Source: Candidatus Woesearchaeota archaeon
Lineage (GTDB): Archaea; Nanobdellota; Nanobdellia; SCGC-AAA011-G17; UBA489
Length of the DNA: 64,000 nucleotides
NCBI GenBank assembly: GCA_964343875.1
Contig: CAYFJW010000002.1
Location: 6,797-70,796, forward strand
Direction: 5' to 3'
This document shows positions 7,689 to 37,654 of this stretch, one piece after another; positions within the stretch are counted from its first letter, which is position 1; the number at the start of each line of letters is the position of its first letter. The notes beneath the pieces were generated by a model that was given only the letters and a program-made list of their open reading frames with translations, was not told the origin of the DNA and did no database searches. A program made the position numbers and the translations under genes.

Positions 7689-8402
7689 TTACGCAGCCCT
7701 ATAAAGGAGCCCATTGCTACTTGCTTGGGGATCATGTTTCGCAAAACTTCTAACTAAAAGTCCTGTATCAAAGGCAGCACCGTGTCCATGTCTCCTAGTT
7801 AAGTCCCACAAACCATTGTACAGACTTGCAATCCTCTCTAATTCAGGATGCCTATTTGAACCAGTCATTCCATCAAAAAGCCAGGGTTCATCAATACCAA
7901 CAACCAAATCAGAAAACCAATGTGCAAAGGCTTCACTATGAGAAACTAAATCCCTATGCAAGCCTCCGCTTGGAACACTAAAACCCACTCGTTTGAGTAA
8001 AGACCTAGAAAGAATTTCATTAAAAACAACATGTCCATACTCATGACCCAAAACATGATCAAAGAAGTCTTCTGCCTCCCCCCAACCAAGAGCCATAACA
8101 AAAACTGAGTATGCTCTCCCAGTTTCAGTTAAAGGCAAACGAGCAGCCATCATTCCATCCCTATTAAGGTCAACAAAACTTAGTCGCGCCAAACTTTCAC
8201 GTAATTGAACATGCCATTTGCCGTCAATACCAAGAGAGGTTTCCCCCATACTAGTTCCAAGTTCTAAACCTGGAACAATATAAACCGGTCTTGCAATATC
8301 GCCTTCATAAACGGACCAAGCTTTTTCAAGAACTCTAGCACAATCCTTCTGCCTCGGAGTTAACACTTCTCTTAAAACCACTATAGAAAAATAAACACAC
8401 AA
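7689..8402 (-). CDS. putative zinc metallopeptidase (HExxH motif)
   Basis: GHEYGHVVF HExxH motif; GC-richer than neighbours. Confidence 0.45.
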   Translation of the reverse strand: MCVYFSIVVLREVLTPRQKDCARVLEKAWSVYEGDIARPVYIVPGLELGTSMGETSLGIDGKWHVQLRESLARLSFVDLNRDGMMAARLPLTETGRAYSVFVMALGWGEAEDFFDHVLGHEYGHVVFNEILSRSLLKRVGFSVPSGGLHRDLVSHSEAFAHWFSDLVVGIDEPWLFDGMTGSNRHPELERIASLYNGLWDLTRRHGHGAAFDTGLLVRSFAKHDPQASSNGLLYRAA

Positions 8403-34950: not shown

Positions 34951-36093
34951 ATGGCACTTGATCATGATATAGACAGAGTATTATTCTTAGGAATACCTCT
35001 GGGAAGAAAGTGTGGCGTCTCAAAAGCCAATCTAGAGCTAGCAAAAGCCCTTTCAGGCGAAGGTGTAGCTGTTGATCATATTTCCACATGGCCCCACACA
35101 GATCACTTTGAATTCACTCCATCCGCAGGCGAAGAAAGAAATTTCAAAAGCATAGACGACTTCTTGGCTTTCATGGACGAGGCGGGAAAAGAACCTGACT
35201 TAATACACTGCCATAGTTGGGCATGGGCACCACAATCCCAAGTCGATGGCGAAGGAATAAAGAAGATAAAAAACCATTTTGATGTTGGTGTTGTTCATAC
35301 CTTTCACAGCTATCTTCCAATCGAACAAGCAGCACAAGAAGAATTACTACCTTACGCAGAGAGGGTGGTCCATCTTACCGAACAAGGAGAAGCTGCATTT
35401 TGTGAAATATTTAGACATATGCCACAAAAGTTCCCTAACCTAAGAGTTGTACCCAATATAGTTCAAACTCCAAAATGCTCCAATGCAGATGTTCAAGAAG
35501 TGAGGAAAAGAATAAGTCCAAATGGGGAAGACGTTATTCTTTACGTGGGAAGATTCTCTCATGAAAAAGGAACAACTGAGTTAACAGATGCCTTTGATAC
35601 AATCTCAAAAAAATATGGCGGAGATGTTAGACTAGTTCTAATCGGAGAAGAAACTAAACCTCACGGTGAAGAAGAACGTATGATTGGGAACCTTGCAGGG
35701 TGCATGGGCCAAGTAACATTCACAGGTTGGTTAGACGAAAGAGATGTTGCATTACATCAAAGAGCTACTGGAATGGGTGGTCTTGAAATAGCTCCAAGTT
35801 ACTACGAAGCTTTTTCTTTAGCAATATTCAAAGCACTAGCAACAGGATGTCCAGTTGCAGCATCAAGAATCCCAACTCTCAGAAATTTATTACATCTAGA
35901 TACTGATAAGCCATATGCAATACCAATCAGAGAAGTAAGTCCCGGCGATATAGTTACAGCTTTTGATTTCTTTAGAGCAAATAGAAGCGAATGTCTAGAA
36001 CTTACAAGATTAGCTCAACAAAAAGTAACCAAAGATTATTCCCCTCAAAACGTAGCTAGGCAATGCTTAGGCGTTTACAGGGAAGTCCGATAA
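34951..36093 (+). CDS. glycosyltransferase, GT4-like (GT-B fold)
   Basis: C-terminal EAFSLAIFKALATGCPVAAS E-x7-E-type motif; GC-richer than surroundings. Confidence 0.65.
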   Translation: MALDHDIDRVLFLGIPLGRKCGVSKANLELAKALSGEGVAVDHISTWPHTDHFEFTPSAGEERNFKSIDDFLAFMDEAGKEPDLIHCHSWAWAPQSQVDGEGIKKIKNHFDVGVVHTFHSYLPIEQAAQEELLPYAERVVHLTEQGEAAFCEIFRHMPQKFPNLRVVPNIVQTPKCSNADVQEVRKRISPNGEDVILYVGRFSHEKGTTELTDAFDTISKKYGGDVRLVLIGEETKPHGEEERMIGNLAGCMGQVTFTGWLDERDVALHQRATGMGGLEIAPSYYEAFSLAIFKALATGCPVAASRIPTLRNLLHLDTDKPYAIPIREVSPGDIVTAFDFFRANRSECLELTRLAQQKVTKDYSPQNVARQCLGVYREVR

Positions 36094-36137
36094 AACTAAT
36101 AACTTTTATAAGGACATTAAAGACCCTTCTACCAGAT

Positions 36138-36223
36138 GCGGGAGTCCCATAGTCTGGTCAATTGGGCAGGACTTAAGATCCTGTGGCTTAGTGCCTGCGA
36201 AGGTTCGAATCCTTCCTCCCGCA
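36138..36223 (+). tRNA. tRNA-Leu (anticodon TAA)
   Basis: Acceptor gcgggag/ctcccgc, anticodon loop ctTAAga, long variable arm, T-loop ttcgaatcc; no CCA. Confidence 0.8.
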
Positions 36224-36295
36224 GTTAATTCCATTAATCGCACATACCTTGTTCTGGGGAATACATCTTAAACAGGGGTACCCCCTCTTAACAAC

Positions 36296-37021
36296 ATGTA
36301 TTCTAGTAAAAGTGCTCTCAAAATTCCAACAAAATGGACGGCAGATTTAGCATATTTTTGTGGTTTGATTACCGGAGATGGATCAATGCCAGATGCACAT
36401 TCAAGGAGACCAAATGGAAAGAAACAAAAAAGGTACATGATACACTTCTTTGGTAATTCCCCCAAGTTCATGAATGAAGTTTACATGCCTCTTTTTCACA
36501 ATCTTTTCGGGATAAAACCCCGCCTAACATTATCACACGGCAGGGGAAATCTACCAGTGCACAACTGTCGTAAGGAATCAAAAACAATCTACTTATTCCT
36601 CAGAGACAAAATAGGTTTATCTACAGGAAAAAAGGCAAAAATAGCACACGTTCCAAAAATGCCTAAAAGTTTTCAAATAAACTTTCTCGCTGGACTATTA
36701 GACACTGATGGAGGCAAAAAGGGAAGTGGGTTTGGGTTGTCAACTGCTAGCAATAAGCTAGGCAAGTTTTGTTGTGAAATGTTTGAGAGGTTAGAGTTGT
36801 CACATCATTCTTGTCCATGGAAATACAAGGGCCACATCTACCACCAGGTATATGTGCATAAGAGAGATTGCATAAAAATATTAGAGACAATACCTTTAAA
36901 AAATAAAGAAAAAATCGAATTTTTGCGTAGCACTGCCTCGGTGGTTCAGTCGGTAGAATACGTGCTTGGTAAGCACGAGGTCGTGGGTTCGATTCCCACC
37001 CGAGGCTCTCATAAAATTTAG
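36296..37021 (+). CDS. LAGLIDADG homing endonuclease (double-motif), free-standing between two tRNA genes
   Basis: Two LAGLIDADG motifs (FCGLITGDGS and LAGLLDTDGG); last ~28 codons of the ORF are translation of the downstream tRNA-Thr gene. Confidence 0.7.
   Translation: MYSSKSALKIPTKWTADLAYFCGLITGDGSMPDAHSRRPNGKKQKRYMIHFFGNSPKFMNEVYMPLFHNLFGIKPRLTLSHGRGNLPVHNCRKESKTIYLFLRDKIGLSTGKKAKIAHVPKMPKSFQINFLAGLLDTDGGKKGSGFGLSTASNKLGKFCCEMFERLELSHHSCPWKYKGHIYHQVYVHKRDCIKILETIPLKNKEKIEFLRSTASVVQSVEYVLGKHEVVGSIPTRGSHKI
36935..37007 (+). tRNA. tRNA-Thr (anticodon GGT)
   Basis: Acceptor gcctcgg/ccgaggc, anticodon loop ttGGTaa, T-loop ttcgattcc; no CCA. Confidence 0.8.
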
Positions 37022-37048
37022 AGGTTAATCCCCTCGGTGGCTTCGATT

Positions 37049-37654
37049 TTAAAATAAACTAGAAATTTCTTTTCTCAATTCATTTGATTCCAACACATCT
37101 CCCCTATGTAAATTCCTTGTTGAAACAACACTTGTTCTATTTTTCTCAACAATATTATCTCTTCGAAATGGATAGCATATGTTGTCTGCCTCTCTTCTCA
37201 ATCCCAAAAAATCAACTCTTTTTATCTTGCATCCTGCATCACTGGGGGGCTGTGCAAGACCTACCAAAACATTTGTGTATCCTGCCCGTTCGAGCACATC
37301 CAAAATTGGTCCTACCGTCAACCCACTATGCATACACACATCGAACAACATAATTCCAGAACTTTTATTTGATGCTAACCTCCTATATGTCGCATCAAAT
37401 TCATCTACAATCTCATCTACGTTTCTATTATTAGTGTTATATCCCTCTGGATTAGTAAAGTAAATATTTGGAGGGGCAACTCCTGGAAACTTTTTTGCCC
37501 ATGCCCTTTTTAATGCAATATATCCCGGTCTTGCTGAACGGTCAAGAAACATAACATTTTCAATTCCTCTTCCAAAAAGAAAATTAGCCATACTCCTACC
37601 TATGTTTCTAACATCCAATACACTTCTTTGAGTTATAAAATTTTTAGAGGGCAT
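37049..37654 (-). CDS. hypothetical protein, possible phosphoribosyltransferase-like fold
   Basis: IMLFDVCMHSGLTVGPILDV resembles a PRTase type I nucleotide-binding loop; weak. Confidence 0.3.
   Translation of the reverse strand: MPSKNFITQRSVLDVRNIGRSMANFLFGRGIENVMFLDRSARPGYIALKRAWAKKFPGVAPPNIYFTNPEGYNTNNRNVDEIVDEFDATYRRLASNKSSGIMLFDVCMHSGLTVGPILDVLERAGYTNVLVGLAQPPSDAGCKIKRVDFLGLRREADNICYPFRRDNIVEKNRTSVVSTRNLHRGDVLESNELRKEISSLF

What the first reader, a model, noticed from the sequence alone, without database searches (positions are those of the whole stretch)
36138..37021. Free-standing double-motif LAGLIDADG homing endonuclease between tRNA-Leu(TAA) and tRNA-Thr(GGT), reading into the tRNA
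The 241-aa ORF carries two LAGLIDADG motifs (FCGLITGDGS, LAGLLDTDGG) and occupies almost the entire space between two intact tRNA genes. Its last ~28 codons are simply the translation of the tRNA-Thr sequence, which suggests the endonuclease gene inserted next to, or lost its stop at, the tRNA. In archaea these enzymes usually live in rRNA or tRNA introns or inteins. A copy sitting intergenically in a tRNA cluster suggests a mobile element that targeted a tRNA locus, or a remnant of an excised intron. Both flanking tRNAs look intact (no intron in the anticodon loop).
Basis: partly seen in the sequence, partly recalled or inferred. Interest (0 to 1): 0.55.

Follow-up and report, generated by a model that had tools for sequence, protein, structure and literature searches.

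The report
Homing endonuclease carrying a spare tRNA
A selfish DNA-cutting-enzyme gene has landed inside this archaeon's threonine-tRNA gene and destroyed it. It brought its own working copy of that tRNA directly behind it, and the same "cut and replace" cassette recurs across many DPANN archaea.

Summary
ORF 36296-37021 (241 aa) is a two-motif, I-DmoI-like LAGLIDADG protein lying between tRNA-Leu(TAA) and tRNA-Thr(GGT), and its last 28 codons read through the tRNA and 11 nt beyond it.

It is not a gene sitting in a spacer between two resident tRNAs. A syntenic relative (L018) has tRNA-Leu and tRNA-Thr(GGT) 2 nt apart with no ORF. In the window and in L003, an ~0.8-kb cassette (5'UTR + endonuclease gene + its own, 29%-different tRNA-Thr(GGT)) sits inside that resident tRNA-Thr gene, and fragments of the resident gene remain at the borders.

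The linkage is family-wide:
- All 15 distinct loci examined have an intact tRNA-Thr(GGT) within about 110 nt of the gene.
- 83 of 102 homologous proteins end in a translated tRNA 5' end.
- 10 of 15 loci keep a conserved tRNA-Thr anticodon-arm stub (..TAGTGGTA|TG) ending at the canonical intron site 37/38.

The distribution is patchy: empty sites occur in two lineages. The protein is under purifying selection (dN/dS 0.11).

Best reading: a homing endonuclease that targets the tRNA-Thr(GGT) gene and carries a replacement copy. Cleavage and target site are inferred. The closest precedent is an unexplained Caldiarchaeum tRNA-Thr(GGU) insertion. I rate it a new variant of a known kind.

The parts
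36137..36224 (+). Resident tRNA-Leu(TAA). It is the left landmark and not part of the cassette.
   Evidence: ARAGORN and Rfam. It is 95.5% identical to the tRNA-Leu of the empty-site relative L018 and 97.7% identical to that of L003.
36225..36231 (+). Left junction. This is where the 5' part of the resident tRNA-Thr (nt 1-24, still present in L003) has been lost in the window.
   Evidence: Three-way alignment A2. L003 has TTTT + GCCGCCGTGGCTCAGTGGTAGAGC here. The window has only TTAATTC.
36232..36295 (+). Cassette 5' untranslated region, shared with L003 and absent from L018.
   Evidence: Alignment A2: CATTAATCGCACATACC.. aligns with L003 CATTAATCACATATAC... Coordinates.
36296..36934 (+). Core coding region of the LAGLIDADG homing endonuclease (213 codons), with catalytic Asp28 and Asp138 present.
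   Evidence: Pfam; 102 homologs; alignment A1; AF2 model and fold search; dN/dS 0.11 against L003.
36296..37021 (+). Full ORF as it reads in the window (241 aa), running through the cargo tRNA to a TAG at 37019-37021.
   Evidence: The tail is disordered in the model. Tails of this kind are seen in 83 of 102 family members.
36895..36908 (+). A/T-rich TTTAAAAAATAAAG inside the codons for IPLKNKEK, 27-40 nt upstream of the cargo tRNA. It is a possible promoter (TATA) for the tRNA; this is inferred only.
   Evidence: Three other tRNAs of the window (Leu, Val, Gly) have TATA-like boxes at about -34..-26. No consistent box position is seen across the family.
36935..37007 (+). Cargo tRNA-Thr(GGT), brought in with the endonuclease gene.
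   Evidence: Rfam 71.6 bits. It is only 71.2% identical to the resident tRNA-Thr of L018 but 95.9% identical to the L003 cassette tRNA.
37008..37033 (+). Right-hand spacer of the cassette. It holds the stop codon. AGAGGT at 37020-37025 may be a decayed piece of the resident variable-loop region (uncertain).
   Evidence: Alignment A3; coordinates.
37034..37042 (+). 3' remnant of the disrupted resident tRNA-Thr(GGT): TCGGTGGCT, which is nt 64-72 of the L018-type gene. Homology to the empty site resumes here.
   Evidence: Alignment A3 and (9/9 identical; shuffle p about 0.02 on its own). L003 keeps 15/15 nt at the same place (0 of 1000 shuffles). Flank homology to L018 continues downstream.

Best explanation
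The region is a compact mobile cassette of about 0.8 kb, roughly 36225-37033. It consists of a short leader, a monomeric two-domain LAGLIDADG homing endonuclease gene, and a complete tRNA-Thr(GGT) gene that starts where the endonuclease core ends. The ORF therefore has no stop of its own and terminates wherever the tRNA sequence happens to supply one.

The cassette sits inside the organism's original tRNA-Thr(GGT) gene, which it destroyed. The cargo tRNA now supplies that function.

Proposed mechanism, all of it inferred:
- The enzyme cuts cassette-free tRNA-Thr(GGT) genes in or near the anticodon arm. The best-preserved junctions point to nt 37/38, the canonical intron site.
- The break is repaired from a cassette-bearing copy, using tRNA-derived sequence as the only homology shared between distant genomes.
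- The resident gene is split or replaced, and the cassette's own tRNA escapes cutting because its anticodon stem differs or because it carries an intron.

Shown: the insertion architecture, the empty sites, the foreign origin of the cargo tRNA in the window lineage, the family-wide linkage to tRNA-Thr(GGT), and purifying selection on the protein.

Inferred: endonuclease activity, the exact target, immunity of the cargo tRNA, the repair route, and how the cargo tRNA is transcribed (a promoter inside the ORF's 3' end, or co-transcription followed by processing).
For: 1. Empty site. L018 and L019 have the same flanks (permease-CBS-GT4 upstream, the 201-aa gene downstream; flanking proteins 80-92% identical). 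They carry tRNA-Leu, then 2 nt, then tRNA-Thr(GGT), with no ORF.
2. Remnants. L003 keeps resident nt 1-24 (24/24 identical) upstream of the ORF and nt 58-72 (15/15) after the cargo tRNA. The window keeps nt 64-72, after which flank homology resumes.
3. Foreign cargo. Between the window and L018, tRNA-Thr is 71% identical while the adjacent tRNA-Leu is 95.5% identical.
4. Family-wide linkage. All 15 distinct loci from different neighbourhoods and DPANN lineages have an intact tRNA-Thr(GGT) next to the gene. 83 of 102 proteins end in a translated tRNA 5' end, in one of three frames.
5. Conserved stub. 10 of 15 loci have GAGYGYTRTAGTGGTA (D-stem 3' strand, anticodon stem and loop to A37) upstream of the ATG. 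In 7 of them the ATG uses A37. About 0.015 occurrences of the 8-mer are expected by chance.
6. Other 3' remnants. L014 has nt ~38-73 (nhmmer E = 4e-7). L006, L008 and L033 also have remnants.
7. A second set of empty sites. L046, L047 and L048 are syntenic with cassette-bearing L040.
8. Enzyme features. The fold is I-DmoI-like. The catalytic Asp is kept in 95 of 98 (motif 1) and 93 of 98 (motif 2) full-length members. dN/dS is 0.11.
9. Family shape. The family is one tight 50%-identity cluster, far from other LAGLIDADG_3 proteins. It is rare compared with the more than 5000 PheRS-beta clusters of related hosts.
Against: - No cleavage assay exists, so the target site is inferred from junctions only.
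- Left junctions vary: nt 24/25 in L003, and 37/38 in the loci that keep the stub. Right junctions range from nt ~38 to ~64.
- The window and L003 lack the conserved TAGTGGTA stub.
- The stub has G at position 32, which is unusual for a working tRNA. It is conserved across lineages more than a dead fragment should be, and this is unexplained.
- In L011 the tRNA downstream of the gene resembles the tRNA of related cassette-free genomes (87-88% identical to L047 and L048), so the cargo is not always clearly foreign.
- Architecture varies: the tRNA lies upstream in the P0088 clade and is inverted in L037.
- dS between the window and L003 (1.3) matches that of the flanking genes. The cassette has therefore been inherited vertically for a long time while staying under purifying selection. 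That is unusual for a purely selfish endonuclease and would also fit a host function.
- Whether this is the genome's only tRNA-Thr(GGT) cannot be checked in a 64-kb window.
Confidence: 0.66

Rival explanations
1. Domesticated LAGLIDADG protein. An ancient insertion next to tRNA-Thr(GGT) has been kept by the host because the protein now does something useful, for example as a DNA- or RNA-binding factor for this tRNA locus or as a repair or exclusion function. The tRNA fragments are old scars and there is no ongoing homing.
For: dN/dS is 0.11, with dS equal to that of the flanking genes, so the gene has been maintained over a long period of vertical descent. There is one copy in the window. The family is conserved at 50-60% identity. 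The 16-nt stub is conserved beyond what is expected for junk.
Against: Empty sites with an intact, different tRNA-Thr occur in close relatives in two lineages. There are about 102 clusters against more than 5000 PheRS-beta clusters of related hosts. Occasional decay is seen: a frameshift in L014 and catalytic Asp changed to Asn or Tyr in P0026, P0028 and P0062. Catalytic residues are otherwise kept, which a pure binding role would not require. The resident fragments differ between lineages, so the insertions were independent.
Confidence: 0.15
2. Footprint of an integrase-type integrative element, as proposed for Caldiarchaeum. A plasmid or virus integrated by site-specific recombination into tRNA-Thr(GGT), reconstituting the tRNA from an element-borne part and leaving a direct repeat. 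Most of the element was later lost and the LAGLIDADG gene is a passenger.
For: The layout of 5' tRNA fragment, ORF and reconstituted tRNA on the same strand matches the Caldiarchaeum tRNA-Thr(GGU) locus, which was interpreted as pNOB8-like integration (PMC3293823). L033 has a 13-nt direct repeat of the tRNA 3' end flanking the ORF.
Against: In all 15 distinct loci the insert holds only the LAGLIDADG ORF. No integrase is seen in the gene tables of the flanks. The same ~0.7-0.8-kb unit recurs in unrelated neighbourhoods. The part of the upstream stub nearest the ORF is element-specific rather than host-specific. In the window, L003 and L014, a whole foreign tRNA plus a separate resident 3' remnant are present, and simple att recombination does not produce that.
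Confidence: 0.08
3. An ordinary free-standing homing endonuclease gene dropped into the spacer between two resident tRNAs, or upstream of a resident tRNA-Thr. It lost its stop codon by accident, and the tRNA is not cargo.
For: Both tRNAs are intact. In L011 the downstream tRNA looks like the local type. Six loci show no 3' remnant.
Against: The empty-site spacer is 2 nt. Resident tRNA-Thr fragments lie on both sides of the ORF-plus-tRNA unit in L003, and on the right side in the window. The cargo tRNA is 29% different from the resident type. Overlap with the tRNA is the rule in the family.
Confidence: 0.07
4. A giant bulge-helix-bulge intron, or its excised remnant, of tRNA-Thr(GGT) at position 37/38 that is still spliced, so that the outer tRNA halves remain a working gene.
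For: The conserved stub ends exactly at A37, the canonical archaeal intron site. L014 keeps a near-complete 3' half.
Against: The outer 5' acceptor strand and D-arm are missing or broken in every locus but L037, where the D-loop is deleted. In the window almost nothing of the outer gene remains. BHB matches are at chance level. The stub's anticodon-stem strand does not pair with the L014 3' remnant.
Confidence: 0.03

Closest known systems
Caldiarchaeum subterraneum tRNA-Thr(GGU) locus heterogeneity (Sugahara et al. 2012, PLoS One, PMC3293823)
   Same: The same tRNA species is involved. A 5' fragment of the tRNA is left upstream. The insertion's ORF (813 bp) lies immediately next to, and on the same strand as, an intact tRNA-Thr(GGU). 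Cassette-free and cassette-bearing alleles coexist. The authors linked it to the origin of introns and split tRNA genes.
   Different: There the insert is 1.87 kb and includes a repeated 545-bp region. The junction is at nt 27. The ORF was called a 'putative DNA recombinase' by a machine-learning classifier, and a pNOB8-type integrase model was proposed. Here the ORF is demonstrably LAGLIDADG, overlaps the tRNA, and forms a family spread across DPANN archaea. I could not obtain the Caldiarchaeum ORF to test for homology.
Phage T4 SegB and other 'intronless homing' free-standing endonucleases (PMC2330249)
   Same: It is a free-standing endonuclease gene embedded among tRNA genes. Its recognition site lies in a tRNA gene, and homing drags the neighbouring tRNA genes into the recipient.
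   Different: SegB is a GIY-YIG enzyme in a phage. It recognises the T-psi-C motif shared by many tRNAs and acts between largely collinear genomes. No disrupted resident gene or duplicated replacement copy is left behind.
I-DmoI-type archaeal LAGLIDADG endonucleases (rRNA-intron or intein encoded)
   Same: The fold and the two-motif monomer architecture match, and these are the best structural matches.
   Different: Those enzymes sit in spliceable introns or inteins, so the host gene stays functional through splicing. Here there is no splicing element, and function is kept by carrying a second copy of the target gene.
tRNA-targeting integrative elements (SSV1, pNOB8 type)
   Same: They insert into a tRNA gene, the element carries tRNA sequence that restores the gene, and a displaced tRNA fragment remains at a border (as summarised in PMC3293823).
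   Different: Those elements use tyrosine recombinases and att sites, are many kilobases long, and restore only part of the tRNA. Here the only gene is a LAGLIDADG nuclease, and a whole tRNA is carried in at least the window, L003 and L014 lineages.
Synthetic Cleave-and-Rescue (ClvR) gene drives (PMC6442612)
   Same: The logic is the same: a nuclease that destroys the endogenous copy of an essential gene is tightly linked to a cleavage-resistant rescue copy.
   Different: ClvR is engineered, based on Cas9 and gRNAs, sits at an unrelated locus and does not home. The present element is natural, protein-guided and sits in the target gene itself. Its resistance and its cleavage are inferred, not shown.

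Membership tests
LAGLIDADG endonuclease superfamily (Pfam LAGLIDADG_3, single-chain two-domain type) | Two LAGLIDADG motifs, each ending in a catalytic acidic residue | tested here: met
   GLITGDGS (Asp28) and LAGLLDTDGG (Asp138). The Asp is kept in 95 of 98 and 93 of 98 full-length family members.
LAGLIDADG endonuclease superfamily (Pfam LAGLIDADG_3, single-chain two-domain type) | Profile match above the curated threshold | tested here: met
   PF14528 scores 33.9 bits against a cut-off of 22.5, with two matched stretches.
LAGLIDADG endonuclease superfamily (Pfam LAGLIDADG_3, single-chain two-domain type) | Pseudo-dimeric alpha-beta-beta-alpha-beta-beta-alpha fold with a beta-sheet DNA saddle | tested here: met
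   The AF2 model has pLDDT 88.8. The best Foldseek matches are I-DmoI, PI-PfuI, the TliVMA intein endonuclease domain, I-Tsp061I and I-SceI, all with probability 1.00.
LAGLIDADG endonuclease superfamily (Pfam LAGLIDADG_3, single-chain two-domain type) | Site-specific double-strand cleavage leaving 4-nt 3' overhangs | not testable with these tools
   This needs purified protein and tRNA-Thr(GGT) DNA substrates.
Homing (mobile) endonuclease gene | Presence/absence polymorphism at the same genomic site in related genomes, with the empty allele carrying an intact target | tested here: met
   The window and L003 (present) against L018 and L019 (absent). L040 (present) against L046, L047 and L048 (absent).
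Homing (mobile) endonuclease gene | The same insertion site recurs in unrelated genomic neighbourhoods (site specificity) | tested here: met
   All 15 distinct loci are associated with tRNA-Thr(GGT). Fragments of a second tRNA-Thr are present in most of them.
Homing (mobile) endonuclease gene | The enzyme cleaves the empty allele and not the occupied one | not testable with these tools
   Inferred only. The cargo tRNAs differ from the resident ones in the anticodon stem, or carry introns (7 of 15).
Archaeal bulge-helix-bulge (BHB) intron | BHB motif formed by the intron-exon boundaries | tested here: not met
   The strict hBHBh' scan gave 17 hits against a mean of 10.4 in shuffles (maximum 19). 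None lies at a meaningful boundary.
Archaeal bulge-helix-bulge (BHB) intron | A continuous, functional host gene once the insert is removed | tested here: not met
   The outer tRNA-Thr lacks nt 1-63 in the window and nt 25-57 in L003.
Integrase-mediated tRNA-targeting integrative element | A tyrosine or serine recombinase encoded by the element | tested here: not met
   The insert holds a single ORF, which is LAGLIDADG. No recombinase domains appear in the gene tables of the loci.
Integrase-mediated tRNA-targeting integrative element | Direct repeats of tRNA sequence at both borders (attL/attR) | tested here: inconclusive
   tRNA-derived sequence is present at the borders, but the repeats are unequal. 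A whole foreign tRNA plus separate resident fragments occur in the window, L003 and L014.

The most novel reading that the evidence does not exclude
This is a natural 'cleave-and-rescue' homing element. A protein-guided nuclease breaks an essential tRNA gene at the canonical intron position 37/38 and spreads because it carries a resistant replacement. As a by-product it generates the disrupted tRNA genes typical of DPANN and other archaea: separated 5' and 3' halves, and partner tRNAs with introns in the anticodon arm. If so, it is a concrete and testable agent for the long-debated origin of split and intron-bearing archaeal tRNA genes. The unexplained Caldiarchaeum tRNA-Thr(GGU) insertion would then be the same kind of element.
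Probability: 0.3. Interest if true: 0.85.

Novelty: new variant of a known kind. Interest (0 to 1): 0.68.

Why it matters
Homing endonucleases normally avoid harming the host by hiding in self-splicing introns or inteins. This family appears to use a third solution: it destroys the target gene and carries a spare. That design was invented independently for synthetic gene drives.

The family also gives a specific, clonable enzyme and a defined substrate (tRNA-Thr(GGT) DNA) for testing how archaeal tRNA genes become split or acquire introns at position 37/38. That question has so far rested on comparative inference.

Practically, these ORFs are annotated as hypothetical proteins whose C-termini are really tRNA sequence. 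The adjacent tRNA fragments can also confuse tRNA gene counts in DPANN genome bins.

Tried and rejected
- Metagenome-wide scan with a degenerate tRNA-Thr(GGT) pattern, meant to catch empty sites. It returned one locus (L017), which is the same organism as L006 and carries the cassette.
- Genome contigs and viral-contig scans with the protein profile. The first gave 9 family loci plus one distant hit. The second gave only 26-32% relatives.
- Sequence search of the PDB gave no hit. The fold search was needed instead.
- BHB or intron reading: rejected.
- Group I intron: there is no Rfam hit in the window other than tRNAs, and there is no room for a ribozyme. The archaeal group I introns in PMC6125680 are all in rRNA genes.
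- The idea that the conserved IPLKNKEKI motif exists because it encodes the tRNA promoter. A TATA-like box is plausible in the window, but its position is not consistent across the family. I kept it as an inference only.
- The idea that TAGTGGTATG is a ribosome-binding context. One unrelated gene start in the window has it after GGAGG, but the endonuclease copies lack GGAGG, and in three loci the stub lies 36-41 nt upstream of the ATG.
- Excess of introns in partner tRNAs (7 of 15) compared with other tRNAs in the same loci (2 of 9). The difference is too small to mean anything.
- Using taxon labels to show horizontal transfer. The two Aenigmatarchaeota-labelled copies are not each other's closest relatives, but the labels on genome bins are too coarse to rely on.
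- Literature searches for LAGLIDADG with DPANN and tRNA, or with tRNA-Thr in archaea, found no description of this family.
Full report
**1. The observation**

The window holds an ATG-to-TAG ORF at 36296-37021 (241 aa, + strand). It lies between tRNA-Leu(TAA) at 36137-36224 and tRNA-Thr(GGT) at 36935-37007 (ARAGORN, Rfam).

The ORF core stops being protein-like at 36934. The last 28 codons are the tRNA read in frame, plus 11 nt, up to a TAG at 37019.

The protein passes Pfam LAGLIDADG_3 (33.9 bits, cut-off 22.5). It has both motifs with their acidic residues. It folds in AlphaFold (pLDDT 88.8) into a two-domain structure whose best PDB neighbours are I-DmoI, PI-PfuI, the endonuclease domain of an intein and I-Tsp061I. 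The tRNA-encoded tail is disordered.

The identical protein occurs on 14 independent contigs.

**2. The overlap with a tRNA is a property of the whole family**

A database search gave 102 homologs (E from 1e-163 to 1e-45), nearly all 208-215 aa and 47-77% identical. The few named ones come from DPANN archaea: Pacearchaeota, Woesearchaeota, Aenigmatarchaeota and Nanoarchaeia.

Their C-termini look like tRNA 5' ends translated in one of three frames, for example ..ASVAQLVE..CLSSSVGRA and ..MPQ-stop. 83 of 102 fit such patterns.

I obtained DNA for 15 distinct loci (window, L003, L006-L015, L033, L037, L040). In 12 of them the ORF ends between 4 nt before and 99 nt after the first base of a tRNA. 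In every case that tRNA has the anticodon loop TTGGTA(A), so it is tRNA-Thr(GGT). Seven of the 15 partner tRNAs carry introns.

The neighbouring genes differ from locus to locus. The linkage is therefore to the tRNA and not to a neighbourhood.

Most members use a stop supplied by the tRNA D-loop (TAG in ..GGTAGCTCAG.. or ..GTTTAG..). L003, the closest relative (77%), stops at GTT-TAG. The window has GTT-CAG at the same place, so it reads on through the whole tRNA.

**3. An empty site shows what was there before**

I used the upstream glycosyltransferase as an anchor. This led to L018 (GCA_018655015.1, labelled Woesearchaeota) and L019. They have the same gene order: permease, CBS, GT4, then the 201-aa gene and the following genes. 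Flanking proteins are 80-92% identical to the window's, and the 201-aa gene immediately downstream of the tRNA is 63% identical.

In L018, tRNA-Leu(TAA) is followed after 2 nt by a tRNA-Thr(GGT), and there is no ORF.

The three-way alignments (statistics) show the following:
- L003 retains, right after tRNA-Leu, the first 24 nt of the L018-type tRNA-Thr (24/24 identical). The insert-specific leader follows, then the ORF, then a different complete tRNA-Thr(GGT), and then the last 15 nt of the L018-type gene (15/15).
- The window shares the leader, the ORF and the different tRNA. It has lost the 5' fragment. It keeps TCGGTGGCT (37034-37042), after which homology to L018's downstream flank resumes.
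- Between the window and L018, tRNA-Leu is 95.5% identical but tRNA-Thr only 71%.

So an ~0.8-kb unit made of leader, endonuclease gene and its own tRNA-Thr(GGT) lies inside a disrupted resident tRNA-Thr(GGT) gene. The insertion is the derived state. A deletion could not recreate the missing middle of the resident gene in L018.

**4. Where the element enters the tRNA**

In 10 of the 15 loci the ATG is preceded by GAGYGYTRTAGTGGTA. The spacing is 0 nt in seven loci and 36-41 nt in three. This sequence is the 3' strand of a D-stem, nucleotide 26, a 5-nt stem strand and an anticodon loop xU-GGU-A. It is a tRNA-Thr(GGT) 5' half ending at A37. In seven loci A37 is the A of the start codon.

The invariant octamer TAGTGGTA is expected about 0.015 times in those 50-nt windows and is seen 10 times. 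Elsewhere in 331 kb of fetched sequence it occurs at roughly chance frequency.

In L009 and L037 the stub continues upstream into an acceptor strand (GCCCCTG.., GCCTCTG..).

On the other side, L014 has a fragment matching nt ~38-73 of a different tRNA-Thr, 8 nt after its intact tRNA (nhmmer E = 4e-7). L006, L008, L003, the window and L033 have shorter 3' fragments.

The best-preserved junctions therefore point to nt 37/38, the canonical archaeal intron position. Junctions in L003 (24/25) and the variable right ends show later deletion or variable resolution.

Two points are unexplained:
- The stub carries G at position 32.
- The 11-16 nt of the stub nearest the ORF are the same in lineages whose proteins are only about 55% identical, while the distal parts differ.

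I read the proximal part as belonging to the element. It could be a co-converted flank, a homology arm, or a retained half-site. This is inference.

**5. Variants**

In the P0088 clade (L033), the intact tRNA-Thr(GGT) carries a 12-nt intron at 37/38 and lies 6 nt upstream of the ATG. A 13-nt copy of its 3' end follows the stop codon.

In L037 an intact, intron-bearing tRNA-Thr(GGT) lies on the opposite strand upstream. It is followed by a 5' half remnant and then the ORF, and nothing lies downstream.

The order of the parts can therefore change, but an intact tRNA-Thr(GGT) always stays within about 110 nt of the gene.

**6. Mobile or domesticated?**

Evidence for mobility:
- A second set of empty sites exists. 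L047 and L048 (intact tRNA-Thr(GGT), no ORF) and L046 (the same, with a 61-nt intron at the 3' side of the anticodon loop) are syntenic with cassette-bearing L040.
- Only about 102 clusters carry the gene, against more than 5000 PheRS-beta clusters from related hosts.
- The family is one tight 50%-identity cluster, separated by a large gap from other LAGLIDADG_3 proteins (E of 2e-100, then about 1e-28 for full-length proteins).
- There is sporadic decay: a frameshift in L014, and catalytic Asp changed to Asn or Tyr in three members.

Evidence for retention:
- The window and L003 share the same junctions, so they inherited one insertion.
- Their endonuclease genes have dS of 1.3, like the flanking genes, and dN/dS of 0.11. 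Flanking genes give 0.06-0.12.
- The protein has therefore been kept functional for a long time.

Continued drive against cassette-free alleles such as L018's would explain this retention. So would a host function. I keep domestication as the main rival.

**7. Mechanism proposed**

The enzyme recognises cassette-free tRNA-Thr(GGT) DNA around the anticodon arm and cuts it. Repair copies the cassette from a donor. Between distant genomes the only shared homology is the tRNA itself, which would explain why tRNA-derived sequence is kept at the left border and why the cargo tRNA sits at the right border.

The result depends on where repair resolves. In one outcome the resident 3' part is replaced, leaving no 3' remnant (six loci). 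In the other it is left behind as a remnant (window, L003, L006, L008, L014).

The cargo tRNA keeps the cell viable. It is presumably immune because its anticodon stem differs or because it carries an intron.

How the cargo tRNA is expressed is open. An A/T-rich TATA-like stretch lies at 36895-36908, at a distance similar to the boxes upstream of three other tRNAs in the window (Leu, Val, Gly). Alternatively, the tRNA is co-transcribed with the ORF and processed out.

None of these steps has been shown directly. The architecture that motivates them has.

**8. Comparison with what is known**

The closest published case is the Caldiarchaeum subterraneum tRNA-Thr(GGU) locus. [quoted passage not shown] The authors interpreted it as integrase-mediated and offered it as a model for tRNA gene disruption (PMC3293823). 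I could not test whether that ORF is a LAGLIDADG protein.

Phage T4 SegB is a free-standing endonuclease among tRNA genes that recognises a tRNA motif and drags tRNA genes along (PMC2330249).

The logic of a nuclease linked to a resistant rescue copy matches synthetic Cleave-and-Rescue drives (PMC6442612).

The searches of the held literature found no description of this DPANN family.

**9. Verdict**

The finding is real, and more interesting than a stray endonuclease gene. It is a new variant of free-standing ("intronless") homing, in which the element sits in an essential tRNA gene and carries a substitute.

Confidence in the architecture is high. Confidence in the mechanism is moderate (0.66 overall). 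Interest is 0.68.

Noticed in passing
L021:7196-8112: A different, distantly related LAGLIDADG_3 ORF (252 aa, minus strand, 31% identical over the N-terminal domain) lies 59 nt from a tRNA-Thr(TGT) at 8013-8087. That tRNA is followed by a partial duplicate of its own 3' end (..TTCGAGTCCCTCCAAAGGCT). The pattern of endonuclease, intact tRNA and tRNA remnant may extend to other tRNAs and other LAGLIDADG clades.
   Followed up: partly
Proteins P0129, P0187, P0204, P0207, P0212: Several distant LAGLIDADG_3 relatives outside the family (E about 1e-16 to 1e-26) also end in tRNA-like translated tails (..VAQLG..TVAQ..MPR..SSAGRA). Their genomic context could not be looked up.
   Followed up: no
L046:3120-3225 (minus strand) and L046:4730-5612: At a cassette-free site, the resident tRNA-Thr(GGT) carries a 61-nt intron at the 3' side of the anticodon loop. 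This is where the cassette enters in other genomes, so the intron might protect the gene or be a relic. The same locus has another 300-aa LAGLIDADG_3 gene about 1.4 kb away.
   Followed up: no
L037:2270-2470: A second TAGTGGTATG lies directly against the 3' end of the inverted intact tRNA-Thr(GGT) (2278-2287), in addition to the one in the 5' remnant (2460). This suggests an inversion, or two successive insertion events.
   Followed up: no
L003:2616-3779 and L003:4752-5293, compared with window 34951-36093 and 37049-37654: The genes on either side of the tRNA pair are not conserved, even though the wider neighbourhood is. The L003 glycosyltransferase is only 23% identical to the window's. The 201-aa gene is replaced in L003 by two small ORFs (95 and 84 aa). 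The window and L018 201-aa proteins are only 63% identical, against 80-92% for the other flanking proteins. The locus looks like a recombination hot spot.
   Followed up: partly
L014:2983-3600; proteins P0026, P0028, P0062: There are signs of decay in some copies. The L014 ORF has a frameshift. The catalytic Asp is replaced by Asn (P0026 motif 1, P0028 motif 2) or by Tyr (P0062).
   Followed up: partly
L011 (CAYIKF010000047.1): This contig is labelled 'uncultured Gammaproteobacteria bacterium', yet it carries this archaeal cassette and an archaeal-type tRNA-Thr. The genome bin is probably contaminated or mislabelled.
   Followed up: no
window:18404-18477: The second threonine tRNA in the window, tRNA-Thr(CGT), has no TATA-like box in its 60 nt upstream, unlike the Leu, Val and Gly tRNAs. 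It may be co-transcribed with the upstream gene.
   Followed up: no
L040, L047, L048 tRNA genes: tRNA-Thr(GGT) differs strongly between close relatives: 70% between L040 and L047, whose PheRS-beta proteins are 83% identical and whose flanking proteins are 75-83% identical. tRNA-Gln also varies (76-83%), so in this lineage the excess is modest. In the window lineage the contrast is clearer (71% against 95.5% for tRNA-Leu).
   Followed up: partly
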